NCBI GenBank assembly: GCA_031549535.1
Contig: JAVBPP010000024.1
Span: 10,180 to 74,179 of the forward strand
Length of the DNA: 64,000 nt
DNA from: Oscillospiraceae bacterium
GTDB taxonomy: Bacteria > Bacillota > Clostridia > Oscillospirales > Acutalibacteraceae
Direction: 5' to 3'
The notes under the pieces are model-generated. The model saw only the letters and a program-made list of their open reading frames with translations, had not been told where the DNA came from and did not search any database. A program made the translations under genes and the position numbers. Shown here one piece after another: positions 3,937-62,024 of this stretch. Positions within the stretch are counted from its first letter, which is position 1. Each line of letters opens with the position of its first letter.

Positions 3937-3977
3937 CCGCGCTGCAGCGGCCATCATTCTGAAAGGGAGTGAATTGC

Positions 3978-4862
3978 ATGTCATTGTCGGCTATAATGCT
4001 CTTGCTGAAACGTATTTTTGCATCGCTGCTCGTTGCGCTGGAGGTTTTTATCGGCTGGGCGTTCGGCATTCCCGTGCATGCGCACGGCTCGGCGCTGGAC
4101 CGCAGCAAGTTTACACAGGAGCCCGTCTGGGCGGATGAATTTGACGGCACTCAGCTGGACGCAAGCAAGTGGGGAGACCACCATAAATGGGGCGGGGAAA
4201 CCACGGTACGCCGCGGCGGCTACTGGAACTTGGCTATGGCGGAGCTGAAGGACGGCTGCTTAAACATCCGGACAGAATATTTGGAACAGGGGCTTGACGG
4301 GGGCCCGGCGGGATATTATACTTGCGGTATTGACACAAACGGCCTGTTTGAACAGGCTTACGGCTTTTTCGAAGTGCGCTGCAAGCTCCCGGCGGGGGCT
4401 GGGCACTGGGCAGCGTTTTGGATGCTCAACAACGCCATGGGGAATGTGGACGGCAGCGGCCGTGACGGCGCAGAAATTGATATTTTTGAAGCGCCCTATT
4501 ACTTTAAAGGCGGCAGCTACCGCAATGCCGTTACCTCCAACATTCACATTGATGGCTACGACGAGGGGCACAAGTCCGACAGCCTCGGCCGCTGCCTCGT
4601 TGCAGGTGACCCGTATAACGAGTTCCACACCTACGGCTTGGAATGGAGCGAGAAGGAATACATCATTTACGTGGACGGTATTCAGTTTGCAAAAAGCAGC
4701 TTCGGCGGCCCCAGCCGCGCTCCGGAGTACCTGATTCTTTCCGTGGAAGTGGGCGGCGAAAACGGAACGCCGGGGGATTCCTGGGCGGGCGATATCCGCA
4801 ACAACAGCTTTTTGCCCACGTCATTCTTGATTGATTATGTACGCGTATACCAATATAAATAA
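3978..4862 (+). CDS. secreted glycoside hydrolase family 16 (beta-glucanase/laminarinase-like)
   Basis: Track ORF 3969..4862. The ATG at 3978 follows a GGGAG RBS. The N-terminus is a hydrophobic signal/anchor, and the GH16 catalytic motif EIDIFE is present (GAEIDIFEAP). Confidence 0.8.
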   Translation: MSLSAIMLLLKRIFASLLVALEVFIGWAFGIPVHAHGSALDRSKFTQEPVWADEFDGTQLDASKWGDHHKWGGETTVRRGGYWNLAMAELKDGCLNIRTEYLEQGLDGGPAGYYTCGIDTNGLFEQAYGFFEVRCKLPAGAGHWAAFWMLNNAMGNVDGSGRDGAEIDIFEAPYYFKGGSYRNAVTSNIHIDGYDEGHKSDSLGRCLVAGDPYNEFHTYGLEWSEKEYIIYVDGIQFAKSSFGGPSRAPEYLILSVEVGGENGTPGDSWAGDIRNNSFLPTSFLIDYVRVYQYK

Positions 4863-4888: not shown

Positions 4889-5950
4889 ATGGATAAGAAG
4901 AACGAAATCGGCTGCGCGATTATCGGCTACGGCGGAATGGGCAGTTGGCACGCGCGAAAGATTAAGGGGCTGAACGGCGGACGGGTCGTGGGTATCTATG
5001 ATATCGATCCCAATCGCTGCAAGGCGGCGGAAAAAGACGGCTTTCACGCCTATTCCTCCCGCGAAGAATTGCTGGCAGACCCGGCAATTGACCTGGTGAC
5101 CATTGCAACGCCCAACGATGTCCACAAGGAAATCGCGGTTGCCGCCATGGCGGCGGGGAAAAACGTGATTTCAGAAAAGCCGGTCGCCATGAACTCCGGC
5201 GAGCTGGAGGAAATGATTGCGGCTTCCAAACAATACAACAAAATGTTTACCGTCCACCAAAACCGTCGCTGGGATGAGGATTATCTCACCGCAAAATACA
5301 TGCTGGACGAAAACACCCTGGGTCCCGTTCACCGTGTGGAGTCCCGCGTGCAGGGTTCCCGCGGAATTCCGGGGGATTGGCGCAATCAAAAGGCGCACGG
5401 CGGCGGCATGCTGCTGGACTGGGGCATTCATTTGCTCGACCAGGCGCTGATGATGACCCTGCCGCGCAAACTGGTTTCCGTGTATGCCAACCTCACCAGC
5501 GTCACCAATGAGGAATGTGACGACGGCTTTTATTGCACCATGAAGTTTGACGACGGCATGACCTTCTATATTGAGGTCACCACAAGCAACTTTATTGAGC
5601 TGCCTCGTTGGTATGTTTTGGGTCAAAACGGTTCCGCCGTTGTGGAAAACTGGAGCCTGAAGGGGAAAATCATCAAGGTCTCCGACTGGGAAAACCGCGA
5701 CGCAGTTCCGGTGCAGGCAGGCGCAGGCCTAACAAAAACAATGGCGCCGCGCACAGACGACACCATCAAAAAATTTAAGCTTCACAAAGTCCACGCGGAC
5801 TGGGGCGCCTATTACCAAAATATTTTTGCCACACTGCGCGGCGAAGAAACCCAGCTCATCACCCACGACCAGCAGCGCAGGCTCATTAAACTGATTGAAG
5901 GTATTTTTGAATCCCATGAGCAGAATAAGGTTGTTTATTTTAACGAATAA
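4889..5950 (+). CDS. Gfo/Idh/MocA family oxidoreductase
   Basis: Rossmann motif CAIIGYGGMGSWHARK and EKP motif (ISEKPVA). It is the last gene of the tightly spaced + strand operon. Confidence 0.85.
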   Translation: MDKKNEIGCAIIGYGGMGSWHARKIKGLNGGRVVGIYDIDPNRCKAAEKDGFHAYSSREELLADPAIDLVTIATPNDVHKEIAVAAMAAGKNVISEKPVAMNSGELEEMIAASKQYNKMFTVHQNRRWDEDYLTAKYMLDENTLGPVHRVESRVQGSRGIPGDWRNQKAHGGGMLLDWGIHLLDQALMMTLPRKLVSVYANLTSVTNEECDDGFYCTMKFDDGMTFYIEVTTSNFIELPRWYVLGQNGSAVVENWSLKGKIIKVSDWENRDAVPVQAGAGLTKTMAPRTDDTIKKFKLHKVHADWGAYYQNIFATLRGEETQLITHDQQRRLIKLIEGIFESHEQNKVVYFNE

Positions 5951-5968
5951 TTTCTACAAGGCAACGAA

Positions 5969-5993
5969 GGGCGCCCGCAGTGTGTGGGCGCCC
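5969..5993 (+). terminator. GC-rich hairpin after the sugar operon (possible terminator)
   Basis: GGGCGCCC (5969-5976) pairs with GGGCGCCC (5986-5993) across a 9-nt loop. The T-tract is weak. Confidence 0.4.
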
Positions 5994-6105
5994 TACTTCA
6001 TACTAATCCGCATAAGTAAATTAATTTATTTTATTTAATAGTTATTATATTGTTTTTATTGAATTAAACAGGTAAACAGTAACGGCCATATATGAAATCA
6101 GAATA

Positions 6106-6134
6106 TTGACAAAAATAAATAGCTTTGCTACAAT
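6106..6134 (+). promoter_or_regulatory. sigma-70-like promoter of the QueC-like gene
   Basis: TTGACA (6106-6111), a 17-nt spacer, then TACAAT (6129-6134), in an AT-rich stretch. Confidence 0.45.
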
Positions 6135-6176
6135 AAAGTACACGTTGTATTTTTACCTTAAAGGAGGAACTTTTGA

Positions 6177-7574
6177 TTGCCAAACAAAGTAAAGCTGAAT
6201 GAAATCGTCATTGATAAAAACCGAATTTTTTACGATTGCACGATTACCGGAGAATGGCAGCGCATTTTTCACATGGATCGCGATTTTTTTGTCGAATATA
6301 GTGAAGATATGACGCAATGTCCACCGAGTATTGCGGTGTTACCTTTTATGGGAACCATGCTGGTTCTCTCATGGCTGTTTGATGCGGAGATTATTTTGAA
6401 TCAGCTTGATTGTGACTTTTACGATGCAATCGAGGATATGAAGCGAGAGTACGTGGAAATGTACCCCAAGTTTACCTTCTTGGGCGAGTTGACGGTTGCG
6501 CAAATTGTAAAGACAAATAAACCAAAACAGCAGCACGGTAACACGGTGTTGTTATATTCAGGAGGCGTTGATGCCAATTACTCGTTGTATACAAATATGG
6601 AGGATAAGCCCGCATTGCTTTCCGTTTGGGGCGCTGATGTAAAATTTGAGGATGAAGCCGGTTGGAATCTGGTTGCCGCACATACGCGCCAGGTTGCTAA
6701 GCAACATGATTTACCCTGCTGCCTGGTCAAGTCCTCATTTCGACGTTTTGTTAACTATGGTGTTGTGAGCAAATTGCTCAAACGTCCAAGCTTTTTAAAC
6801 TATTGGTATACATTTCATCATGGCATGGGCTTGGTTTCGCACGCAGCACCTTACGCCTTTTTACACGGTATTCGCTATGTGATGATTTCTGCTTCCTATT
6901 GTTTTAAAGAGTTGCACCGTTCTTTTTGTGCCTCTGACCCTGCGCTGGATTGCGCCATTCGTTTTTGCGGATGCAAAGTGATTCACGAAGGATATGAAGT
7001 TGCAAGAATTACAAAGATAAGGCGATTGTGTACCTATTCAAAACGGATGGAAACGCCGATGAATTTCCGGGTCTGTTGGGTCACGGGAACCGGCAAAAAC
7101 TGTTGCATCTGCATGAAATGTTCCCGAACATGGCTAAATATTTTGACGGAGGGTTTTGATCCGGAGGACTTCGGATTTTCTGTTACATCGGAAACAGTAA
7201 TGCAGGTAATCGGAACCATAACCAACGAAGAGAACTATTCGAAAATTGCAAAAAATGATTTCTGGAAAGATTGTTATTTGCGCTTAAAGGAGTATTTAGA
7301 ATCCGAACAACAGCATGCGTGGAAGCCAGATTATTATGAGTTGCTGCACGACCTAATGAAAGAACTGCCATTTGCGAAAAGTCCTGCTGTAGCAGCAAAA
7401 AAGGAGACAACGAACCAAGCAAAGCCCATTCCCTTAAGTAATCCGCCCGTAAAGGTGCTGACAGCGCAAGATGGCGATACCGTCCCTAATTCGGAAAAGA
7501 GCCGAAACTTCGCAGCTCGTGCAAAAAAATTTCTTCGCGGTGGCTCAACCAACTCGCCACAGAATAAAGATTGA
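6177..7574 (+). CDS. QueC-like PP-loop ATPase superfamily protein with long N- and C-terminal extensions (function unknown)
   Basis: TTG start 9 nt after AGGAGG (6162-6167). PP-loop LLYSGGVDA at residues 126-133. Cys300-x8-Cys309-x2-Cys312-x2-Cys315 has the same spacing as the QueC zinc site. The coding GC is visibly lower than in the flanking genes. Confidence 0.6.
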   Translation: MPNKVKLNEIVIDKNRIFYDCTITGEWQRIFHMDRDFFVEYSEDMTQCPPSIAVLPFMGTMLVLSWLFDAEIILNQLDCDFYDAIEDMKREYVEMYPKFTFLGELTVAQIVKTNKPKQQHGNTVLLYSGGVDANYSLYTNMEDKPALLSVWGADVKFEDEAGWNLVAAHTRQVAKQHDLPCCLVKSSFRRFVNYGVVSKLLKRPSFLNYWYTFHHGMGLVSHAAPYAFLHGIRYVMISASYCFKELHRSFCASDPALDCAIRFCGCKVIHEGYEVARITKIRRLCTYSKRMETPMNFRVCWVTGTGKNCCICMKCSRTWLNILTEGFDPEDFGFSVTSETVMQVIGTITNEENYSKIAKNDFWKDCYLRLKEYLESEQQHAWKPDYYELLHDLMKELPFAKSPAVAAKKETTNQAKPIPLSNPPVKVLTAQDGDTVPNSEKSRNFAARAKKFLRGGSTNSPQNKD

Positions 7575-7600
7575 CCAAACACGGATTTTCTAATGAAAAA

Positions 7601-7660
7601 GCTTCAAAATCCTTAGAATATAGCTATCTCTATATTCTAAGGATTTTGAAGCATGTTTTT
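7601..7660 (+). terminator. rho-independent terminator
   Basis: A perfect 22-bp stem (7601-7622 pairs with 7631-7652) with an 8-nt loop, followed by ATGTTTTT. Confidence 0.75.
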
Positions 7661-7783
7661 ATATTAAAATAAAACGTCAAATATCCCAACTCTAAGTTGA
7701 GCTGCAACATATTTTTGCAACAATTTGTTTGTGGTGTTACCGGCAAAAACAGGCTACAATAAATTGCGGGAGGGAATTATGTT

Positions 7784-9100
7784 ATGGACATGAAACAAAT
7801 TGGCAAAAATATTGCAGGTCTACGAAAAGAAAAGGGGTACACGCAGGAAGCTCTTGCAGAAAAACTTGGAATTTCTCCGCAGGCTGTCAGCAAGTGGGAA
7901 ACGGGAATTGGTTTACCCGAGGCGGCGCTGTTGCTCGCGTTATCGGAGCTACTCCATGTGACGATTGATGAAATCTTGCAGCCGGAGAACCGGCAAAACC
8001 GTATGGCAGATTTTTTTAACCGAAATATGCCTGCCCCCGCAGGGAAAATACTGCAACACCTTCCAAAAATTGACCGCTGGAATCCGCCGCCCGGTTGTGA
8101 CATGTATTATTCCATGCCGGCGATGGTTGCCGAGGCATTGTGTTGCATTGAGGCGCGGGAGGGGGGAAGACCAGAAAGCGTTACTCTGGAACAAATCAAC
8201 GATAGATTCCGTGACCTGATGCATATTATGGGGGTCGGCTATGGGTTTTTATGGTTTGAAAAGCGGCATCTGATTGAGGAACTTTGGCGCATTAATGAAC
8301 CCGAAGATATGATGAACCGCGCCATGCGTTACTATGGGCGGGATTATCTTTGGCTTACGCCGCAAAATGCCTCCGGGGAGGAAATGCAGCGTGCTGTGCT
8401 GTGGTCCATTGATAGAGGACATCCGGTTGTAATGGAATGGGCGGGTGGAATCCCGGAGTACAGTATTGTCGCCGGCTATGAGGAGCGGGGCAAGTGCCTG
8501 ATTGGGTGGACTTACTGCAGCGAATGCGCTGCCAAAACCAATGAGCAGGGCATGTTTGTGAATCCGGCTCGCTGGGAGGAGGCGCTGCCCTTCCGCGTTC
8601 TGATTATCGGTGATGCAATTCCGCCATCCTACTCTGACCGGGACTCCATGCACTACGCGCTGGAAACACTGAACCGCAACCAGCCGGGCGGATGGAGCAA
8701 GGCAGCGCATGAAGCCCTAACCGGTGACCGTTGGGCGGTGGCAGGGGAGGATGCCCTGCAAAAATGGCTGGAGGCCTGTGATACGGAGCAGCACACCATT
8801 CAACTCTTGACGGTTGCGGATATCTTTACGCACGCCTTATACCAAAATACCATGTATACGCAAAAATGTCTGTTGTCTTATTACAAAAAGCTGGGCGCGC
8901 GCAGCCCCACGCGGGTCAATGATGTGGTAAACCAAATTTCTATTGCAGTCATACAACTTGAAAACAGTTGGAACGGGATAGGCAAACAGAAAAAAAAGCC
9001 CACGGAACAAGCCAAAGCCTGCCGCAGGCATATAGAAACCATACTGCAACACCGCCAATCTATGCGCGGGTGGGTAACGGACTTGGCGGAACGGCTATAA
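7784..9100 (+). CDS. XRE-family helix-turn-helix protein fused to a ~360-aa uncharacterised C-terminal domain
   Basis: The N-terminus IGKNIAGLRKEKGYTQEALAEKLGISPQAVSKWETG is a classic HTH_3/Cro-C1 motif. The remainder has no motif I can name with confidence. Confidence 0.8.
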   Translation: MDMKQIGKNIAGLRKEKGYTQEALAEKLGISPQAVSKWETGIGLPEAALLLALSELLHVTIDEILQPENRQNRMADFFNRNMPAPAGKILQHLPKIDRWNPPPGCDMYYSMPAMVAEALCCIEAREGGRPESVTLEQINDRFRDLMHIMGVGYGFLWFEKRHLIEELWRINEPEDMMNRAMRYYGRDYLWLTPQNASGEEMQRAVLWSIDRGHPVVMEWAGGIPEYSIVAGYEERGKCLIGWTYCSECAAKTNEQGMFVNPARWEEALPFRVLIIGDAIPPSYSDRDSMHYALETLNRNQPGGWSKAAHEALTGDRWAVAGEDALQKWLEACDTEQHTIQLLTVADIFTHALYQNTMYTQKCLLSYYKKLGARSPTRVNDVVNQISIAVIQLENSWNGIGKQKKKPTEQAKACRRHIETILQHRQSMRGWVTDLAERL

Positions 9101-29261: not shown

Positions 29262-29289
29262 CAAACATGACACACAGCTGTCATGTTTG
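29262..29289. promoter_or_regulatory. perfect 11-bp inverted repeat in a divergent promoter region (possible operator)
   Basis: CAAACATGACA (29262-29272), a 6-nt spacer, then TGTCATGTTTG (29279-29289). Lies between the divergent genes starting at 29203 (-) and 29338 (+). Confidence 0.35.
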
Positions 29290-29337
29290 ATGTTTTATCG
29301 TTTTAGAAAACAAAAACAACATTTGGAGGGGTACCTA

Positions 29338-29892
29338 ATGCGTAAAATATTATTAACATCCTCTGGGTTCGAGAACCAAAGAATTATGAACGTGTTTCAT
29401 AGCCTGCTTGAAAAAAAACCTAACGAAGCGAAAGCCTTGTTTATTCCGACAGCCGCGATACATGCGGATGCGATAGCTGTGCTTCCAAAATGTATGAACG
29501 ATTTACGCAGCGCCGGAATCCTGGCCGAAAACATCGTGGTTTTCGACTTGCATCGGCCTATGACATACGAAGAATTGTGTACGTATGATGTGGTTTATGT
29601 AACCGGGGGAGATTCCAGATATTTATTGAAACGGATCAACGACACCTTCTTCCATGAATCACTGACACAATTTGTCGAACAGCGAGGTGTTTATGTGGGA
29701 GTCAGTGCCGGAAGCTGTATTGCCGCACAAAATCTGCCGGAGGGGTTACAGTTTATCCATTGTACCTTGGATGTGCATATGCAAATTGGAACAAAAGGCG
29801 GTCTGATTGACACATCGAAATGTCCGCATATCAATTTAACGGGCAATAACGCAATTGTAATTCGCGGTGAGCGGTATGAGGTTGTAGAATAA
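29338..29892 (+). CDS. peptidase S51 (dipeptidase E-like) family protein
   Basis: Track ORF starts at 29287. The ATG at 29338 follows a GGAGGGG RBS. The nucleophile motif GVSAGS is present. The gene is visibly lower in GC than its neighbours. Confidence 0.7.
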   Translation: MRKILLTSSGFENQRIMNVFHSLLEKKPNEAKALFIPTAAIHADAIAVLPKCMNDLRSAGILAENIVVFDLHRPMTYEELCTYDVVYVTGGDSRYLLKRINDTFFHESLTQFVEQRGVYVGVSAGSCIAAQNLPEGLQFIHCTLDVHMQIGTKGGLIDTSKCPHINLTGNNAIVIRGERYEVVE

Positions 29893-37108: not shown

Positions 37109-38215
37109 ATGAAAATCATTTGCGACACCCAGCTTCTGTCCGAAGCCTGCCAGAATGTACAGCGTGCCGTTACACAAAAAACCACGATTCCGGCGCTGGA
37201 ATGTATTCTGTTACGCACGGGAGAAAATTCTGTTGCACTTACCGGCTATGATTTGGATGTCGGTATTCAAACCAGTATCGAAGCTAAAGTGGGGCAGGAG
37301 GGCGCGATTGCGCTGAATTCCCGCGTATTGTGCGACATTCTGCGCAAGCTGCCGGGCGATACTGTGGTAATTGAATCTGATTTTCGCTATCTTGCTAAAA
37401 TACAGAGCGCTGAGGCAGAGTATTCCCTCATCGGCATTTCACCGGAGGAGTTTCCGGAGCTTCCCAGTGTGACAGGTGGCTATCCCATCGTGCTTGCACA
37501 GGGTATTGTAAAGGAAATGGTGCGGCAAACCATTTTTGCCGTCGCGGTGAAGGATAGTAAAATTATACATACCGGCATTAAATTTGAAATTCAGGACGGG
37601 GAAATTCGCCTGGTTGCCGTAGACGGTGTGCGCCTTGCCCTGCGTAAGGAAAAAATTGAGTACGATGGGGAGGAACTCTCCTTTGTTGTGCCGTCCAAAA
37701 CGCTTTCTGAAGTGGTGAAACTCATGGATGATGATGATGCGTTTGTTTCCATGAGTGTGGGAAAAAGGCACATTGTGTTTGATATTTCCGGTTATAATGT
37801 AGTATCCCGCTTATTGGACGGAGAGTTTTTAAACTACCGCGCGAGCATTCCGCAGGTGCACGCAACAAGCGTGCAGGTGAATACTCGCCAGTTTATTGAG
37901 AGCATTGACCGCACCTCGCTGATTATCACAGATAAACTGAAGAGCCCCGTAAAATGTAATTTTTCACAGGATTCCATTTATATTTCATCCGTGACAGCCC
38001 TGGGTACCGCGAGCGATAAAATCGGCGCGCAAATCAAGGGAGACAGTGTGGAAATTGGTTTCAATAACAAGTATTTGGTGGAGGCGCTGCGTGTATGTGA
38101 CTCTGACGAGGTGCGTTTGGAATTAAACGGCCCCGTTGCGCCGATACTCATTCTTCCCGTGGAGGGCGACGACTTTCTGTTTTTGGTATTACCTGTGCGA
38201 TTGAAGGCTGATTAA
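37109..38215 (+). CDS. dnaN: DNA polymerase III beta subunit (sliding clamp)
   Basis: 368 aa. The MKIICDTQLLSEACQNVQRAV N-terminus and three-domain clamp length fit, as does synteny with yaaA-recF. Confidence 0.95.
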   Translation: MKIICDTQLLSEACQNVQRAVTQKTTIPALECILLRTGENSVALTGYDLDVGIQTSIEAKVGQEGAIALNSRVLCDILRKLPGDTVVIESDFRYLAKIQSAEAEYSLIGISPEEFPELPSVTGGYPIVLAQGIVKEMVRQTIFAVAVKDSKIIHTGIKFEIQDGEIRLVAVDGVRLALRKEKIEYDGEELSFVVPSKTLSEVVKLMDDDDAFVSMSVGKRHIVFDISGYNVVSRLLDGEFLNYRASIPQVHATSVQVNTRQFIESIDRTSLIITDKLKSPVKCNFSQDSIYISSVTALGTASDKIGAQIKGDSVEIGFNNKYLVEALRVCDSDEVRLELNGPVAPILILPVEGDDFLFLVLPVRLKAD

Positions 38216-38218
38216 GTT

Positions 38219-38488
38219 ATGGATGAAAAGAAAAAAATTAAAGTCCGTGTTGTACCGAGGCAGGAAATTCCGATTTCGATTACTACTGATTTCATTCGCT
38301 TAGATGCCTTCCTCAAGCTTTGTAATGCCGTGGAAAGCGGAGGGCATGCAAAGGAGGTCATTCAAGCGGGAGAAGTTCTGGTCAACGGAGAAGTTTGCCT
38401 GCAACGGGGCAGAAAGCTGCGCGGGAATGACCGGGCACAATTTGGAAGAGATATTTTTGTGGTAGTATATGACAATATTGGAACATGA
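38219..38488 (+). CDS. yaaA: S4-domain RNA-binding protein YaaA
   Basis: 89 aa with an S4-like fold sequence (IRLDAFLKL ... VLVNGEV). Lies in the conserved position between dnaN and recF. Confidence 0.8.
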   Translation: MDEKKKIKVRVVPRQEIPISITTDFIRLDAFLKLCNAVESGGHAKEVIQAGEVLVNGEVCLQRGRKLRGNDRAQFGRDIFVVVYDNIGT

Positions 38489-39560
38489 AATCAACCACTT
38501 TCGCAATATAACACACATCCGTTTTTGTCCGGAGAGCGGCATTAACATGCTCTACGGTAGCAACGGGCAGGGAAAAACAAATATATTGGAAAGCCTTTGG
38601 CTGTATACCGGCTGCCACAGTTTTCGCACAAAAAAAACTGCGGAGCTGATTCAGCAGGGCGCGCGTTTTGCCCAAACCTCGCTGCGTTTTTTCGCGGCGG
38701 AGCGGGAGCAGGACGCGCAAATGAAACTGCACCAAAAGCGTGAGGTGCTGCTTAACGGCGTTGCCAAGGCCAGCCCCCGGCAACTGCTTGGCGAGGTTCA
38801 GGCAGTTGTTTTTTCGCCGGAGGTGCTGAGTATTGTGAAAGAAGGTCCCGCGCAGCGCAGGCGCTTTTTGGATGTGGCAATCAGTGTTGTTCGGCCGCAA
38901 TATGCCCATATTTTAGCAAAATACGGTAAGGCGTTGGATCAGCGTAATAACCTGCTGCGGCAGATTGCGCAGGGTAAAACGAAGGAAGAGTATCTGGAAC
39001 CTTGGGATGAGGAGCTTTCGCTCCTTGGAGCGAGGATAATAGAATACCGTAGGAACTATATCACACCCCTTACTCTCGCCTGTGAAAGTGTCTATGCCAA
39101 AATAACGCAGGGGAAGGAAGCACTCTCTCTTTCTTATCTGTGCAGCGCTGCGCAGGAAGTAACGGACCGGGCGGAGCTGGCCGCCGTGCTGTTTGGCTTG
39201 ATGTGGGAGAACAGAGCCTTGGATATCAGGCGGCTTTATACAACGGCAGGTATTCATAAAGAGGACTTAGAGCTGTTGATAGATGGGAGCCCCGCACGGG
39301 CTTTCGGATCCCAGGGGCAGCAGCGTTCCTGTGCGCTGGCGTTAAAAATTGCGGAGGCACAAATGCTTTTTGCCCTCTCCGGTGAAAAGCCTGTAGTTTT
39401 GTTGGACGATGTGATGAGTGAGCTGGATGAAAACCGCCAGCGGGATTTGCTGCTCTGCTTAGAGGATTGGCAGGTGTTTGTCACCTGCTGTGAACCGTCC
39501 CAGGTATTGCGGCAGAAAACCGCAAAGGCATTTGTGGTCAATCAAGGGAATTTGGTATAA
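38469..39560 (+). CDS. recF: DNA replication/repair protein RecF
   Basis: Walker A GSNGQGKTN, signature-like GSQGQQRS and Walker B VLLLDDVMSELD. Confidence 0.92.
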   Translation: MTILEHEINHFRNITHIRFCPESGINMLYGSNGQGKTNILESLWLYTGCHSFRTKKTAELIQQGARFAQTSLRFFAAEREQDAQMKLHQKREVLLNGVAKASPRQLLGEVQAVVFSPEVLSIVKEGPAQRRRFLDVAISVVRPQYAHILAKYGKALDQRNNLLRQIAQGKTKEEYLEPWDEELSLLGARIIEYRRNYITPLTLACESVYAKITQGKEALSLSYLCSAAQEVTDRAELAAVLFGLMWENRALDIRRLYTTAGIHKEDLELLIDGSPARAFGSQGQQRSCALALKIAEAQMLFALSGEKPVVLLDDVMSELDENRQRDLLLCLEDWQVFVTCCEPSQVLRQKTAKAFVVNQGNLV

Positions 39561-58752: not shown

Positions 58753-60135
58753 TTAAAACTGCAGCTTCCCTTCAATATAAGCCTCCAATTGCTCAAGCGA
58801 AACGCGCTCCTGTTGCATGCTGTCGCGCTCACGGATGGTGACACAGCCGTCCTCGGCCGACTCAAAGTCGTAGGTCACGCAAAGCGGCGTGCCGATTTCA
58901 TCCTGGCGGCGGTAGCGCTTGCCGATGGAACCGGCGTCGTCAAATTCGCAGCTAAAGCGTTTGGTTAAATCATGATAAATTTTCTCGGCCGCTTCGCTGA
59001 GCTTTTTGGAAAGCGGCAGAATGGCAACCTTAACGGGCGCCAACGCCGGATGCAGGCGCAGCACAATGCGCACATCGTTCTTTTCCGCGTCCACAACCTC
59101 CTCGTCGTAGGCGTCGCACAAAAAGGCCAGTGCCACACGGTCCGCGCCGAGGGAGGGCTCTATGACATAGGGCAGATATTTTTCGTTCGCCTCCTGATCG
59201 AAATACTCCATGCTCTTGCCGGAGGTTTCCTGGTGCTGTGTGAGGTCAAAATTTGTGCGGGAGGCAACGCCCCAAAGCTCGCCCCAGCCGAAGGGGAACA
59301 AAAACTCAAAGTCCGTTGTGGCATTGGAGTAGTGCGAAAGCTCCTCCTGCTCATGGTCACGCAGGCGCAGATTCTCCTGCTTCATGCCAAGGGAGAGCAG
59401 CCACTGCCTACAGAATTCCTTCCAATAGGCGAACCACTCCAGCTCCGTGCCGGGCTTGCAGAAAAACTCCAGCTCCATTTGCTCAAACTCCCGTGTGCGG
59501 AAGGTGAAGTTGCCGGGCGTAATTTCGTTGCGGAAGCTTTTGCCCACCTGGCATACGCCGAAGGGGATTTTGCGGCGCGTGGTGCGCTGAATGTTCGGGA
59601 AGTTCACAAAAATACCCTGCGCGGTCTCCGGCCGCAAAAACAGTTCATTTTTTGCGTCCTCCGTCACGCCCTGAAAGGTCTTAAACATCAGGTTAAACTT
59701 GCGAATATCCGTAAAATCATTTGCGCCGCAATCCGGGCAGCAGATATTTTTCTCTTTGATATAGGCGCTCATCTGCTCAAAGCTCCAGCCCGCCGGGTTT
59801 ACATCCGTGTCCTCAATCAGCTTGTCGGCACGGTGGCGTGTTTTGCAGCCCTTGCAGTCCATCAGCGGGTCGGAAAAACCGCCCACATGGCCGGAGGCAA
59901 CCCAGGTCTGCGGATTCATTAAAATGGCGCTGTCCAAACCAACGTTATGGGGATTTTCGCGCACAAATTTTTGCCACCAGGCCGCCTTGACATTGTTCTT
60001 AAACTCCACACCCAGAGGGCCGTAGTCCCAAGTGTTTGCAAGGCCGCCGTAAATTTCGCTGCCGGAATAAACAAAGCCCCTGCCCTTACACAGCGCAACG
60101 ACTTTTTCCATCGTTTTTTCAGAATTCCCTAGCAT
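58753..60135 (-). CDS. glyQS: glycine--tRNA ligase (homodimeric class II type)
   Basis: Typical GlyQS sequence ([40 protein letters not shown]). GGGGAG RBS. An alternative start is the ATG at 60111. Confidence 0.95.
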
Positions 60136-60173
60136 ATGCCGAAACTCCCCTTATTTTATACAGATTAGCTTTT

Positions 60174-60202
60174 AGTATATGCTGAATATGGTGAAAAGTC
60201 AA
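60174..60202 (-). promoter_or_regulatory. sigma-70-like promoter upstream of glyQS
   Basis: On the minus strand: TTGACT (60197-60202), a 17-nt spacer, then TATACT (60174-60179). Confidence 0.4.
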
Positions 60203-60234
60203 GGATGCCGCCGCCTTTTTCGTGCGGATTGGTA

Positions 60235-61293
60235 TTACAGTTCCGTTGTTTCAAATGGCTCAATGCTAAGGAGTCCTAGCTTCATAACAAGGTATCTTGC
60301 AAAGGAGTTATACATAAAAAACGACTTTAGGCTTTTCAACACCAGCTTGCCACGCAGTGCGCGTGTTTTGCTGCGATATACCCGCCGCGGGTTGGATTTT
60401 CGCAAGGCCTCTGCGAGCAGCCTGGCGCTTTCCAACGCATAGCTAATGCCCTCCAGGGAACTGGGGCTGATGAATCCTGCGGCTTCGCCGATTAAAAAGG
60501 CTGTGCGGTCTCCTGTGCAACATTGCCAAAACCCCAAGGGACGCAGCACCAGACAGGCCTGTGTTTTAACCTCCTCGCCAAACGCAAAGCCGCGCTGTTC
60601 CAGCTTTGCTTGCAGCTGCGCGAAACGCTCCCGCCCCCCCGCCTTGGGGAAGGCTCCGCCTAAGATAAAATATTCGTCTTTCGTAACACCCCAGGCATAG
60701 CAATCTGTCAACGCGGAATCAAAAAAGCAGGAGTAGAGCGGATTGCTGCCGGGGTGCCGGTACCACTTTTGAATGGAAATATATTCTCGGATGCGTTTTT
60801 CGGGAAAAAATGTTCTGCGAACCAGGGAATTTGCGCCGTCCGCGCCAACCAGATAGCGAGCGCAGACGGTAGACTCCCGCCCGTTTTGGCTGTAGGTGAT
60901 TTGATAGCCATCTTCTGTACGCACGATACTGCGGCAGTTGGCTTGAGCGGCAACGGTTACGCTGTCCGGAATCAAGCCAATCAGCCAGCGGTCAAATTGG
61001 TGACGATCCAAATTGATATAAAAACGCTGATAATAACGTTCGAGGTTTTGGCGGGTATCAATCGTGCGCACCGCAAAAATCTGCGGATCGACCAAAATTT
61101 GTTTTGGCAAAACCATATTAAACCGAGCCAGCAGCTTCTGCGCGTCTGGCGCCAGCAAACCGCCGCAGGGCTTGCAAAAGCCGGAGGAAGCTGCCCCCTT
61201 TTTGTCAATGGCAATAACAGAAAATTGCGCCCCCAGCAGGCGAGCCAAAGTCGCCCCCGCAGGGCCCAGTCCGATAATTGCAATATCATACAT
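60235..61293 (-). CDS. FAD-dependent oxidoreductase (geranylgeranyl reductase-like family)
   Basis: N-terminal dinucleotide motif YDIAIIGLGPAGATLA and a later GDAAGF-like motif (IGEAAGFISP). Confidence 0.8.
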   Translation of the reverse strand: MYDIAIIGLGPAGATLARLLGAQFSVIAIDKKGAASSGFCKPCGGLLAPDAQKLLARFNMVLPKQILVDPQIFAVRTIDTRQNLERYYQRFYINLDRHQFDRWLIGLIPDSVTVAAQANCRSIVRTEDGYQITYSQNGRESTVCARYLVGADGANSLVRRTFFPEKRIREYISIQKWYRHPGSNPLYSCFFDSALTDCYAWGVTKDEYFILGGAFPKAGGRERFAQLQAKLEQRGFAFGEEVKTQACLVLRPLGFWQCCTGDRTAFLIGEAAGFISPSSLEGISYALESARLLAEALRKSNPRRVYRSKTRALRGKLVLKSLKSFFMYNSFARYLVMKLGLLSIEPFETTEL

Positions 61294-61342
61294 ATTGCTT
61301 GCTCCTTCTTATTCTTTAAGTTTGCGAGTTAAAGGAAAGTGA

Positions 61343-61946
61343 TCACTCTGAACAGAAAGACTTATCAAATTCTCTAGCTTGTTCTCGATTCAAATCGTCG
61401 TTATATATATCTGCTTCAATAAATTTGCCTTTAATATTTTTGAAAAACCCTTCTCTTAGTTCCATAGCCATAAATGCAGGACAATTATCTCCGTTACAAT
61501 CAGAAATTCCAAAATGCTTTGCTTCAACAAAACCAAAACGAGGATAATATTCTGGATGACCAAAGAAAAGTATAGCACCAAATCCAAGATGTTTTGCCTT
61601 TTCAATATGAGTGCTTCATCAAAGCGCTGCCGATACCCGTTTTTTGCAATTCTGGCCATACACTGATTGGGCCGAAGTTTAAGACATCAACCTTTGTACC
61701 ATCTGGTTGTAAAATATAGGCACGACTATAGATGATATGTCCTACAATCTTTCCATCAATTTCGGCAACAAAATCTAAATCCATTACTCCTTCATGTTCT
61801 CGCAAAAAGTGAACCATATGGTGCTCCATGGGGCAATCAATTTTCGAACGGTCTACTCTGGCCGAATTATTGAAAGCTGCTCTCGTTAATTCCTCAACAA
61901 TTCTAAAGTCTTTGGGTTCTTCTAAGCGGATACTTATGGGCATCAA
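61343..61946 (-). pseudogene. GNAT family N-acetyltransferase interrupted by a 1-nt frameshift
   Basis: Track ORF 61602..61946 ends at ...QKTGIGSALMKHSY*. One frame over, the sequence continues IEKAKHLGFGAILFFGHPEYYPRFGFVEAKHFGI... to a stop at 61343. The shift lies at about 61601-61610. The patch is low in GC. Confidence 0.6.
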
Positions 61947-62024
61947 TTTATCAAATCCTTACTCGAAAAATATGTTTTTTGGGAGACTTTAACTTGCTTT
62001 GCACCAATTTCAAAATATGTTCCC

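What the first reader, a model, noticed from the sequence alone, without database searches (positions are those of the whole stretch)
5994..7660. Low-GC single-gene island encoding an orphan, extended QueC-like PP-loop protein
This ~1.7 kb AT-rich stretch sits between GC-rich housekeeping operons and looks like an autonomous cassette. It has a near-consensus promoter (TTGACA-17-TACAAT), a strong RBS with a TTG start, one 465-aa ORF, and a perfect 22-bp-stem terminator. The protein core carries a PP-loop (SGGVDA, residues 128-133) and Cys300-x8-Cys309-x2-Cys312-x2-Cys315, the same spacing as the QueC (7-cyano-7-deazaguanine synthase) zinc site. Unlike QueC (about 220 aa), it has a ~120-aa N-terminal domain and a ~140-aa C-terminal extension ending in a Lys/Pro/Asn-rich tail. 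No queD, queE, queF or tgt genes are nearby, so a role in queuosine biosynthesis is unlikely. Stand-alone QueC-like proteins occur as components of anti-phage systems (QatC of QatABCD, Cap9 of type IV CBASS) and of 7-deazaguanine DNA-modification clusters, but none of their partner genes are present here. This is my best candidate for an undescribed activity, perhaps a single-gene deazapurine- or adenylation-dependent modifier or defence gene, possibly working with the adjacent HTH fusion protein.
Basis: partly seen in the sequence, partly recalled or inferred. Interest (0 to 1): 0.75.

Follow-up and report, generated by a model that had tools for sequence, protein, structure and literature searches.

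The report
Orphan QueC-fold enzyme from glycan clusters
The AT-rich gene is real, but it is a stray, probably horizontally acquired copy of a very large unnamed enzyme family with a QueC-like ATP-using core. That family normally sits next to, or is fused to, enzymes that decorate cell-surface polysaccharides with pyruvate, and nothing links it to phage defence or queuosine.

Summary
ORF 6177-7574 (465 aa, TTG start) has a near-consensus promoter, an RBS and a strong terminator (-35.7 kcal/mol). It lies in the lowest-GC stretch of the window (0.41 vs 0.54). SGGVDA and C300-x8-C309-x2-C312-x2-C315 are present. D132 and the four Cys are invariant in 137/137 relatives; the other PP-loop positions are nearly so.

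No Pfam, NCBIfam, PADLOC or PHROGs model matches the protein. A model of the core alone matches only PP-loop ATPases, and QueC gives the best overall superposition (TM 0.55-0.63). The substrate motifs of canonical QueC are absent.

The N-terminal domain and most of the C-terminal region are not extensions. They are conserved across a family of about 410 aa (6186 clusters at 50% identity, Bacteria and Archaea) that is annotated only as hypothetical.

Of 65 relatives with enough flanking sequence, 58 sit among polysaccharide genes. Of 38 long fusion proteins, 21 carry a pyruvyl-transferase domain and 8 a sugar-associated ATP-grasp domain.

The HTH neighbour is not a partner. There are no phage or defence links.

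Best reading: an ATP-dependent carboxylate-activating (amidating) glycan-decoration enzyme, present here as a divergent, horizontally acquired orphan. The chemistry is inferred, not shown.

The parts
5968..5994 (+). GC-rich hairpin ending the upstream GC-rich operon; marks the left edge of the AT-rich stretch
   Evidence: Inverted repeat I17, arms 5968-5979/5983-5994, 92% complementary. GC drops from about 0.55 to 0.36 here.
6106..6134 (+). Sigma-70-type promoter-like site TTGACA-17-TACAAT with TG extension
   Evidence: 11 of 12 positions match; best site in the region. A consensus match only; not tested.
6163..6167 (+). Ribosome-binding site GGAGG, 9 nt upstream of the TTG start
   Evidence: Read directly from the sequence.
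6177..7574 (+). CDS, 465 aa: divergent member of an unnamed ~410-aa family with a QueC-fold PP-loop ATPase core
   Evidence: ORF. 208 homologues at 30-44% identity. 6186 representative clusters at E <= 1e-3. No Pfam, NCBIfam, PADLOC or PHROGs hit.
6177..6509 (+). N-terminal domain (residues 1-111), specific to and conserved across the family; fold and function unknown
   Evidence: Aligned along its whole length in all 34 sequences of A1, with conserved P56, D78, F81, P97. pLDDT 92-98. No PDB match for the full-length model.
6510..7181 (+). PP-loop ATP-pyrophosphatase core (residues 112-335) with QueC-like topology
   Evidence: Core-only AF2 model has pLDDT 83.4 and pTM 0.83. All top 50 Foldseek PDB hits are PP-loop ATPases. 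The best TM-scores are to QueC 2pg3 and 3bl5. hhalign to QueC covers residues 120-329.
6558..6575 (+). PP-loop motif SGGVDA (residues 128-133), between a strand and a helix
   Evidence: S 135/137, G 132/137, G 136/137, D 137/137; last position A 110 / S 25 / G 2. Strand 123-126 followed by helix 131-139 in the model.
7074..7121 (+). C300-x8-C309-x2-C312-x2-C315: QueC-type metal (probably zinc) site, with an aromatic residue (W301) after the first Cys
   Evidence: The four Cys are 137/137 invariant; C310 is 103/137. Spacing is identical to QueC's C(x)8CxxCxxC (PMC13329287). It aligns in register with E. coli QueC C188/C197/C200/C203 in hhalign.
7182..7382 (+). C-terminal helical region (residues 336-402), conserved in the family; weakly resembles Pfam DUF6395
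   Evidence: Helices 338-401 with pLDDT about 73-89. Aligned across the family. DUF6395 matches at E 0.012-0.16 cover the Cys cluster plus these helices in members.
7383..7571 (+). Low-complexity Lys/Pro/Asn-rich tail (residues 403-465). It includes a basic helix (440-453; nt 7494-7535) that aligns with the family's basic C-terminal helix
   Evidence: pLDDT < 50 for 403-439 and 455-465, helix at 440-453. The insertion is unique to this protein in alignment A1.
7596..7657 (+). Long AT-rich hairpin terminator, bidirectional in form
   Evidence: 28-nt arms, 93% complementary. -35.7 kcal/mol, z = -9.6. T-runs follow the stem on both strands.

Best explanation
The gene encodes a divergent member of a very large, unnamed protein family. 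Each member has a family-specific N-terminal domain, a QueC-fold PP-loop ATP-pyrophosphatase core with a 4-Cys (probably zinc) site, and a helical C-terminal region.

The family works in the decoration of cell-surface polysaccharides, in tight partnership with polysaccharide pyruvyl transferases and, less often, sugar-associated ATP-grasp ligases.

The most likely mechanism is inferred from the chemistry shared by QueC-type PP-loop enzymes. The enzyme uses ATP to adenylate a carboxyl group on the glycan repeat unit. The best guess for that group is the carboxylate of the pyruvate ketal installed by the partner enzyme; otherwise a uronic acid. Ammonia or an amine then displaces AMP to give an amide.

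In this genome the gene is an orphan. It was probably acquired horizontally from a lower-GC donor, keeps its own promoter and terminator, and has no pyruvyl transferase or glycosyltransferase within the 64-kb window.

Shown: family membership, motif conservation, fold, genomic association and fusions, and compositional foreignness. Inferred: ATP use, the substrate, the amide product and the metal.
For: - Family: 208 homologues. 6186 / 3730 / 1088 representative clusters at E <= 1e-3 / 1e-10 / 1e-30. At least 447 species genomes across Bacillota, Actinomycetota, Bacteroidota, Verrucomicrobiota, Spirochaetota, Chloroflexota and Archaea.
- Motifs: the PP-loop and the four Cys are conserved in 137 sequences.
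- Fold: with the core-only model, all top 50 PDB hits are PP-loop ATPases at probability about 1. QueC gives the highest TM-scores in both normalisations (0.55-0.63 over 217-226 columns). hhalign to QueC gives 45.6% probability with the PP-loop and the Cys cluster both in register.
- Context: P0015, P0008, P0055, P0068 and P0101 all lie inside glycosyltransferase / pyruvyl transferase / Wzx clusters. Of 65 family genes with at least 6 neighbours, 58 have at least one polysaccharide gene within 4 ORFs either side. 49 have at least two. 49 have a pyruvyl transferase as neighbour or are a long fusion protein. One apparent orphan (L082) turned out to have a divergent pyruvyl transferase immediately upstream.
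- Fusions: 9 of 10 long proteins carry PS_pyruv_trans, N- or C-terminal. Among 38 long representatives: PS_pyruv_trans 21, ATPgrasp_ST 7, GT2 4, TupA 1, GT8 1.
- Independent RefSeq annotation: a Priestia plasmid carries two tandem copies next to a 'polysaccharide pyruvyl transferase family protein', glycosyltransferases and GalU.
- Chemistry precedent: QueC converts a carboxylate to an amide and then a nitrile with ATP and ammonia. Cap9 and QatC make amide conjugates. WbpG-type sugar amidotransferases use the same scaffold (PMC13329287, read).
- Orphan and foreign: GC statistics. No GT2, pyruvyl transferase or Wzx relative in the 64-kb window.
Against: - No biochemical data exist for any family member.
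- No sequence model detects the relationship to QueC: no Pfam hit at E <= 1, and 1 of 34 members at E 0.93.
- The hhalign probability is only 46% against a low-diversity QueC profile.
- The best Foldseek E-values go to LarE and TtuA-type sulfur transferases, not QueC.
- Co-location in polysaccharide clusters does not identify the substrate. A pyruvate-ketal amide is, to my knowledge, not a described glycan modification.
- About 5 of 65 relatives with enough flanking sequence (roughly 8%) also lack detectable glycan neighbours.
- The window protein deviates at 10 of 62 highly conserved columns against a median of 3 (third most deviant of 137). The changes include E313M inside the Cys motif and W209Y/Q214H in the WWHGFQHG block. 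Its activity or specificity may therefore differ, or be decaying.
Confidence: 0.6

Rival explanations
1. Same family and same glycan context, but the chemistry is sulfur transfer rather than amidation. The Cys cluster, with or without the 92%-conserved Cys251, would bind a [4Fe-4S] cluster or carry a persulfide, as in LarE or TtuA. The adenylated group would then be thiolated, for example to a thiocarboxylate.
For: The lowest Foldseek E-values for the core are LarE (8cp3, 1.2e-4) and TtuA-type sulfur transferases (5ztb, 2.7e-4; 5gha; 5b4e). In the full-length search TtuA had the highest probability, 0.87. There is a fifth Cys (C310, 103/137) and a conserved CASDP cysteine (126/137). FrhB/Fer4 iron-sulfur proteins occur in some of the same clusters.
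Against: The Cys spacing is exactly QueC's zinc motif C-x8-C-x2-C-x2-C, with an aromatic residue after the first Cys. It is not the 3-Cys pattern of LarE or TtuA (PMC13329287). TM-scores to LarE and TtuA (0.42-0.49) are lower than to QueC (0.55-0.63). C310 and C251 are not invariant. No sulfur-carrier or cysteine-desulfurase genes were seen among the recurrent neighbours.
Confidence: 0.12
2. In this genome the gene does nothing useful. It is a stranded fragment of a foreign polysaccharide cluster, still intact but without substrate or partner, and drifting.
For: There are no polysaccharide genes in 64 kb. Composition is strongly foreign. It is the third most deviant of 137 sequences at conserved columns, and it carries a unique low-complexity insertion. 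Its closest relatives, at only 42-44% identity, are embedded in glycan clusters or fused to pyruvyl transferase.
Against: The 465-codon ORF is intact. All predicted catalytic and metal residues are retained. It has a near-consensus promoter, a good RBS and a strong terminator. The identical sequence appears in an independent sequencing run. Partner genes may lie elsewhere in the genome, which was not available. A GH16 gene lies two genes upstream, and GH16 genes recur beside the family elsewhere.
Confidence: 0.18
3. One reading: a stand-alone QueC-like defence or deazapurine-dependent modifier, akin to QatC or Cap9 or to DNA 7-deazaguanine systems, possibly working with the adjacent HTH protein.
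For: It has a QueC-like fold and motifs. It has an island-like composition and is a single gene with its own signals. Cap9 (9nto_B) is among the structural matches, with TMt 0.52.
Against: No PADLOC model, including those for QatC and Cap9, matches at E <= 1. There is no PHROGs hit and no phage homologue. No qatA/B/D, CD-NTase, Cap10/TGT, queD/E or dpd genes are nearby, here or in the relatives' loci. The canonical QueC substrate motifs YxQxHxxE, VPxRN and YPDC are absent (against PMC13329287). The HTH gene is native in composition (GC 0.52), and its orthologues never accompany the family.
Confidence: 0.04
4. The family is a non-catalytic accessory subunit of pyruvyl transferases, serving as a scaffold, substrate-presenting subunit or membrane-targeting subunit. 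It would have kept a PP-loop-like fold without ATP chemistry.
For: The last PP-loop position is Ala rather than the canonical Ser/Thr in 110 of 137 members. It is fused to the transferase in either order. It has a basic C-terminal helix.
Against: S, G, G and D of the PP-loop and many other polar residues (WGAD, CASDP, H270, R277, K280) are invariant or nearly so across phyla, which is typical of an active site. 25 of 137 members have the canonical SGGxDS.
Confidence: 0.06

Closest known systems
QueC, 7-cyano-7-deazaguanine synthase (Pfam PF06508; PDB 3BL5, 2PG3)
   Same: PP-loop SGGxD[S/A] at the start of the core. An identical C-x8-C-x2-C-x2-C motif near the end of the core, with an aromatic residue after the first Cys (QueC Y189, W301 here). 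The motifs occur in the same order. It is the best global structural match, TM 0.55-0.63 over about 220 residues (PMC13329287).
   Different: Not detected by PF06508. It lacks the YxQxHxxE, VPxRN and YPDC substrate motifs. It has an extra conserved ~110-aa N-terminal domain and a ~70-aa helical C-terminal region. It is never found next to queD/queE/tgt; it sits in polysaccharide clusters instead.
QueC-family defence proteins Cap9 (type IV CBASS) and QatC (QatABCD)
   Same: A PP-loop scaffold repurposed for ATP-dependent amide formation. Cap9 is a weak structural match, 9nto_B with TMq 0.43 / TMt 0.52.
   Different: No PADLOC hit. No partner genes. A different Cys pattern: QatC has C(x)19CGxCxxRR (PMC13329287). 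No phage or defence-island association.
N-acetyl-sugar amidotransferases (WbpG / PseA / WbuX; cluster 5 of the QueC-family survey)
   Same: PP-loop enzymes that act in surface-polysaccharide biosynthesis and carry a Cys-rich motif. This shows the scaffold is already used for sugar amidation (PMC13329287).
   Different: No NCBIfam or Pfam hit to that family. In that family the Cys-rich motif and the PP-loop are in the reverse order, and the Cys pattern is CxxC(x)6CxC. No HisH/HisF-like amidotransferase partners were seen here. The partner here is a pyruvyl transferase.
LarE and TtuA/TtcA-type PP-loop sulfur transferases
   Same: Best Foldseek E-values (1.2e-4 to 9e-4), a common PP-loop core, and Cys-based cofactor sites.
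   Different: Lower TM-scores (0.42-0.49). They have 3-Cys [4Fe-4S] or single-Cys sites rather than the 4-Cys QueC pattern. There are no LarB/LarC or tRNA-related neighbours.
Pfam DUF6395 (uncharacterised)
   Same: A weak match (E 0.012-0.16) in 9 of 34 members, over the Cys cluster and the helices that follow it.
   Different: Below the gathering threshold. It covers only about 100 residues. The window protein itself does not match. It carries no functional information.

Membership tests
PP-loop ATP pyrophosphatase superfamily (adenine nucleotide alpha-hydrolase fold) | SGGxD[S/T] loop between the first strand and first helix of a Rossmann-like core | tested here: met
   SGGVDA at residues 128-133, after strand 123-126 and before helix 131-139. 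S 135/137, G 132/137, G 136/137, D 137/137; last position A 110 / S 25 / G 2.
PP-loop ATP pyrophosphatase superfamily (adenine nucleotide alpha-hydrolase fold) | Overall fold matches solved PP-loop enzymes | tested here: met
   With the core-only model, all top 50 PDB hits are PP-loop ATPases at probability 0.87-1.0, and 7 have E <= 1e-3. The full-length model gave only weak hits to the same families.
PP-loop ATP pyrophosphatase superfamily (adenine nucleotide alpha-hydrolase fold) | ATP to AMP + PPi activity with an adenylated substrate intermediate | not testable with these tools
   Needs an enzyme assay.
QueC family (PF06508) | Passes the Pfam QueC model | tested here: not met
   No hit at E <= 1 for the window protein. 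1 of 34 members hits at E 0.93, over the PP-loop only. hhalign family profile against a QueC profile gives 45.6% probability.
QueC family (PF06508) | C(x)8CxxCxxC zinc motif C-terminal to the PP-loop | tested here: met
   C300-x8-C309-x2-C312-x2-C315, invariant in 137/137. It aligns in register with E. coli QueC C188/197/200/203. Zinc binding itself was not tested.
QueC family (PF06508) | Canonical substrate motifs YxQxHxxE, VPxRN and YPDC (PMC13329287) | tested here: not met
   The equivalent positions carry the family-specific WGAD[VI], WWHGFQHGIG and CASDP blocks.
QueC family (PF06508) | Genomic association with queD / queE / queF / tgt or dpd genes | tested here: not met
   None in window 1-16.4 kb. 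None in the homologue loci examined.
QueC family (PF06508) | Closest solved structure is QueC | tested here: met
   Highest TM-scores: 2pg3 0.59/0.60, 3bl5 0.55-0.57/0.62-0.63. E-values are slightly better for LarE and TtuA.
QatC / Cap9 defence QueC-like proteins | Match to PADLOC models and presence of partner genes (QatA/B/D; CD-NTase plus Cap10) | tested here: not met
   No PADLOC family at E <= 1. Neighbours are sugar-metabolism genes, an XRE regulator and the glycine-cleavage genes.
N-acetyl-sugar amidotransferase (WbpG/PseA/WbuX type) | Match to the NCBIfam or Pfam model; Cys-rich CxxC(x)6CxC motif preceding the PP-loop | tested here: not met
   No NCBIfam hit at E <= 1. The motif order here is PP-loop first, then the Cys cluster.
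Unnamed ~410-aa family studied here (partners of polysaccharide pyruvyl transferases) | Full-length alignment with the conserved blocks FFSGGVDA, WGADV, WWHGFQHGIG, CASDPxIDN, HDGYE..R..K and RVCW..G.NCC.CEKC.RT | tested here: met
   E = 4e-150 to the family profile over profile positions 1-390. All invariant columns are retained. However, 10 of 62 highly conserved columns are substituted.
Unnamed ~410-aa family studied here (partners of polysaccharide pyruvyl transferases) | Located in a polysaccharide cluster, or next to or fused to a pyruvyl transferase | tested here: not met
   No GT2, GT4, pyruvyl transferase or Wzx relative anywhere in the 64-kb window. The rest of the genome was not available.

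The most novel reading that the evidence does not exclude
The family is a previously unrecognised major branch of the QueC-type scaffold. It is invisible to PF06508 and absent from the 2026 QueC-family survey. It would chemically edit the carboxylate of pyruvate ketals on surface glycans, converting it to an amide or, by a second QueC-like ATP step, to a nitrile. That would be a glycan modification not yet described. The stand-alone copy in this window would then act in trans on a glycan made elsewhere in the genome, or would have been recruited to a new carboxylate substrate.
Probability: 0.3. Interest if true: 0.75.

Novelty: new variant of a known kind. Interest (0 to 1): 0.5.

Why it matters
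QueC-type enzymes have recently been shown to be reused for anti-phage protein conjugation, cofactor thiolation and sugar amidation.

This gene points to a further branch that is far larger and still unnamed. It has thousands of sequence clusters in gut, rumen, soil and halophilic Bacteria and Archaea. That branch is physically coupled to polysaccharide pyruvyl transferases.

Pyruvate ketals set the charge of capsules, exopolysaccharides and cell-wall polymers. They are recognised by S-layer anchoring domains, by phages and by immune systems. An enzyme that neutralises or converts that carboxylate would change all of these interactions.

For this window alone the result is modest. It is a stray, foreign copy of that enzyme, not a new defence system.

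Tried and rejected
- Direct family assignment failed. Pfam, NCBIfam, PADLOC and PHROGs gave nothing for the protein. phmmer and a family profile against PDB sequences gave nothing.
- Foldseek with the full-length model gave no hit at E <= 1e-3. Only the core-only model was informative.
- hhalign of the 34-sequence alignment against a single E. coli QueC aligned only the PP-loop, at 13% probability.
- My QueC homologue search returned only enterobacterial sequences of at least 81% identity. The QueC profile was therefore shallow, and the 46% probability is a weak test.
- The HTH-partner hypothesis was tested and rejected.
- A search for target-site duplications or flanking repeats around the island found nothing beyond chance-length matches. 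No empty-site comparison was possible, because orthologues of the HTH gene lie in non-syntenic loci.
- Apparent synteny between orphan locus L065 (a xylose-isomerase-like TIM-barrel gene upstream) and the window was rejected. There is no similarity at E < 1e-8.
- Literature searches found nothing describing this family: DUF6395; PP-loop with pyruvyltransferase; QueC-like with polysaccharide; YcfA with QueC.
- The organism was not identified. Cluster look-ups carry no names. The closest named relatives of the neighbouring HTH gene are Oscillospiraceae and Clostridia MAGs.
Full report
**1. What is in the sequence**

The finding's coordinates hold a single ORF, 6177..7574 on the + strand (TTG start, 465 aa).
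- Its best promoter-like site is TTGACA-17-TACAAT at 6106-6134, matching 11 of 12 positions with a TG extension.
- GGAGG lies 9 nt upstream of the start.
- A long hairpin follows the ORF: arms 7596-7623 / 7630-7657, -35.7 kcal/mol, z = -9.6 against shuffles.
- The upstream operon ends in its own GC-rich hairpin at 5968-5994.
- The stretch 5994-7660 has GC 0.407 against 0.537 for the window. It is the lowest of all windows of that size (z = -3.5). The ORF's GC3 is 0.457 against a mean of 0.641 (sd 0.065).
- A separately assembled contig from another data set is 100% identical over window 5398-8863.

**2. Surroundings**

Upstream lies a GC-rich operon: GFO/IDH/MocA oxidoreductases, three xylose-isomerase-like TIM-barrel proteins and a GH16 hydrolase. 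Downstream is an XRE-type HTH protein with a ~360-aa C-terminal domain of unknown function. After that come the glycine-cleavage genes on the other strand. No relative of a glycosyltransferase, pyruvyl transferase or Wzx flippase occurs anywhere in the 64 kb. No flanking repeats mark an insertion.

**3. The protein belongs to a large unnamed family**

No Pfam, NCBIfam, PADLOC or PHROGs model matches it at E <= 1. Sequence searches of the PDB find nothing.

It nevertheless has 208 homologues at 30-44% identity, nearly all about 410 aa and labelled hypothetical. A profile search of 1.84 billion representatives finds 6186 clusters at E <= 1e-3 and 1088 at E <= 1e-30. At least 447 species genomes carry one, mostly Clostridia. 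Others are Bifidobacterium, Microbacterium, Bacteroides, Muribaculaceae, Verrucomicrobiales, Spirochaetaceae, Anaerolineaceae, Methanobrevibacter and haloarchaeal megaplasmids.

The alignment shows that the N-terminal ~110 residues and the helical region after the Cys cluster are conserved family-wide. They are not extensions of this one protein. Only a ~40-55-residue low-complexity insertion before the final basic helix is unique to it.

**4. Motifs and fold**

In 137 diverse members the PP-loop is S (135), G (132), G (136), x, D (137), then A (110) / S (25) / G (2). C300, C309, C312 and C315 are invariant in 137/137. The spacing C-x8-C-x2-C-x2-C, with an aromatic residue after the first Cys, is exactly the hallmark zinc motif of QueC. 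It stands in the same order relative to the PP-loop (PMC13329287).

The full-length AlphaFold model is confident (pLDDT 83, pTM 0.81) but gave no significant PDB match.

A model of the core alone (residues 112-336; pLDDT 83, pTM 0.83) matched only PP-loop ATP pyrophosphatases in its top 50.
- The lowest E-values are for LarE and TtuA-type enzymes (1e-4 to 9e-4).
- The highest TM-scores in both normalisations are for QueC: 2pg3 0.59/0.60 and 3bl5 0.55-0.63, over 217-226 columns.

A local profile-profile comparison against a shallow QueC alignment gave 45.6% probability. It aligned residues 120-329 to QueC 1-217 with both motifs in register.

The substrate motifs of canonical QueC (YxQxHxxE, VPxRN, YPDC) are replaced by family-specific blocks: WGADV, WWHGFQHGIG and CASDP.

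The core is therefore QueC-like in architecture. The protein is not a member of the QueC family as currently defined.

**5. Where the family lives**

Five of six homologues looked up individually lie inside polysaccharide clusters with GT2/GT4, pyruvyl transferase, Wzx, acetyltransferase, PGA_cap or ATP-grasp genes. One stands alone.

I labelled the neighbours in 78 genome loci by similarity to those annotated genes and by extra Pfam scans. Of 65 family genes with at least six neighbours:
- 58 have a polysaccharide gene within four ORFs either side;
- 49 have two or more;
- 49 have a pyruvyl transferase as neighbour or are a long fusion protein.

Pyruvyl transferase is the commonest immediate neighbour. 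One supposed orphan proved to have a divergent pyruvyl transferase directly upstream.

Fusions are frequent.
- 9 of 10 long proteins carry a PS_pyruv_trans domain, on either side.
- Among 38 long representatives the counts are PS_pyruv_trans 21, ATPgrasp_ST 7, GT2 4, TupA-type ATP-grasp 1, GT8 1 and radical SAM 1.

RefSeq annotation of a Priestia plasmid shows two tandem copies beside a 'polysaccharide pyruvyl transferase family protein', glycosyltransferases and GalU. A Halobacterium plasmid copy lies beside an ATP-grasp gene and a GT2 gene.

No homologue exists in 50,697 phage records.

**6. The HTH neighbour**

Its GC (0.52) is native. It has full-length orthologues at 46-68% identity in Oscillospiraceae and Clostridia MAGs. 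Their loci contain no relative of the PP-loop protein, and none of the family's loci contains the HTH protein's C-terminal domain. It is not a partner.

**7. Interpretation**

The family is best read as an ATP-dependent enzyme of surface-glycan decoration, functionally coupled to pyruvyl transferases.

The scaffold's known chemistry points to adenylation of a carboxylate followed by attack of ammonia or an amine:
- QueC converts a carboxylate to an amide and then to a nitrile.
- Cap9 and QatC form amide conjugates.
- WbpG-type enzymes amidate sugars (PMC13329287).

The coupling to the enzyme that installs a carboxylate-bearing pyruvate ketal makes that carboxylate the leading candidate substrate. 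All of this is inference.

A sulfur-transfer variant (LarE/TtuA-like) is the main mechanistic rival.

In this window the gene is a divergent orphan. It differs from consensus at 10 of 62 highly conserved columns against a median of 3, while keeping every invariant residue. Elsewhere the family's genes match their genome's GC (mean difference -0.005, sd 0.037). Only 2 of 67 are as deviant as this copy at -0.10. This points to recent acquisition from a lower-GC donor. Whether it still has a substrate cannot be decided from 64 kb.

**8. Verdict**

The QueC-like PP-loop core and the foreign single-gene cassette hold up.
- Novelty: a new variant of a known kind. It is an undescribed, very large branch with a QueC-fold core, a new architecture and a new context.
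- Interest is moderate. The family-level link to pyruvyl transferases is a worthwhile lead, but the local gene is a stray copy.

Noticed in passing
window 37109-39560: dnaN (DNA polymerase III beta, 37109-38215) and recF (38469-39560) lie side by side. The window probably spans the chromosomal replication-origin region, about 30 kb from the gene studied.
   Followed up: no
window 29287-29892: A Peptidase_S51 ORF has the lowest GC3 in the window (0.441, GC 0.427), even lower than the gene studied. It is a second candidate for foreign origin.
   Followed up: partly
window 3969-4862; L082 11274-12344; L012, L015, L016, L020, L022, L028, L029 about 1-2 genes upstream of the family gene: GH16 glycoside hydrolase genes recur next to the family. 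They occur in 11 of the fetched loci, mostly related Bacillota MAGs plus one Verrucomicrobiales MAG. A GH16 gene also lies two genes upstream in the window. Identity between them is only 24-32%, so this may be coincidence or a loose functional link.
   Followed up: partly
window 7784-9100: This is an XRE-type HTH protein with a ~360-aa C-terminal domain that matches no Pfam family. It is conserved full-length (46-68% identity) in Oscillospiraceae and Clostridia MAGs, in varied genomic contexts.
   Followed up: partly
L092 (Priestia aryabhattai plasmid pG5.MM8) 6596-9200: Two tandem paralogues of the family lie side by side, directly downstream of a pyruvyl transferase gene.
   Followed up: no
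L048 10001-12712: One family member is fused to a ~500-aa multi-pass hydrophobic C-terminal region. It resembles a Wzx-type flippase by position and composition but has no Pfam hit. This would place the enzyme at the membrane.
   Followed up: no
L002 14016-15203; L004 11024-12184; L009, L043, L073: FrhB_FdhB_C / 4Fe-4S ferredoxin-domain proteins recur next to pyruvyl transferases in the same clusters. Their role in glycan modification is unexplained.
   Followed up: no
window 60001-62000: This is another dip in GC (0.46). It overlaps a FAD_binding_3 ORF at 60235-61293 on the minus strand.
   Followed up: no
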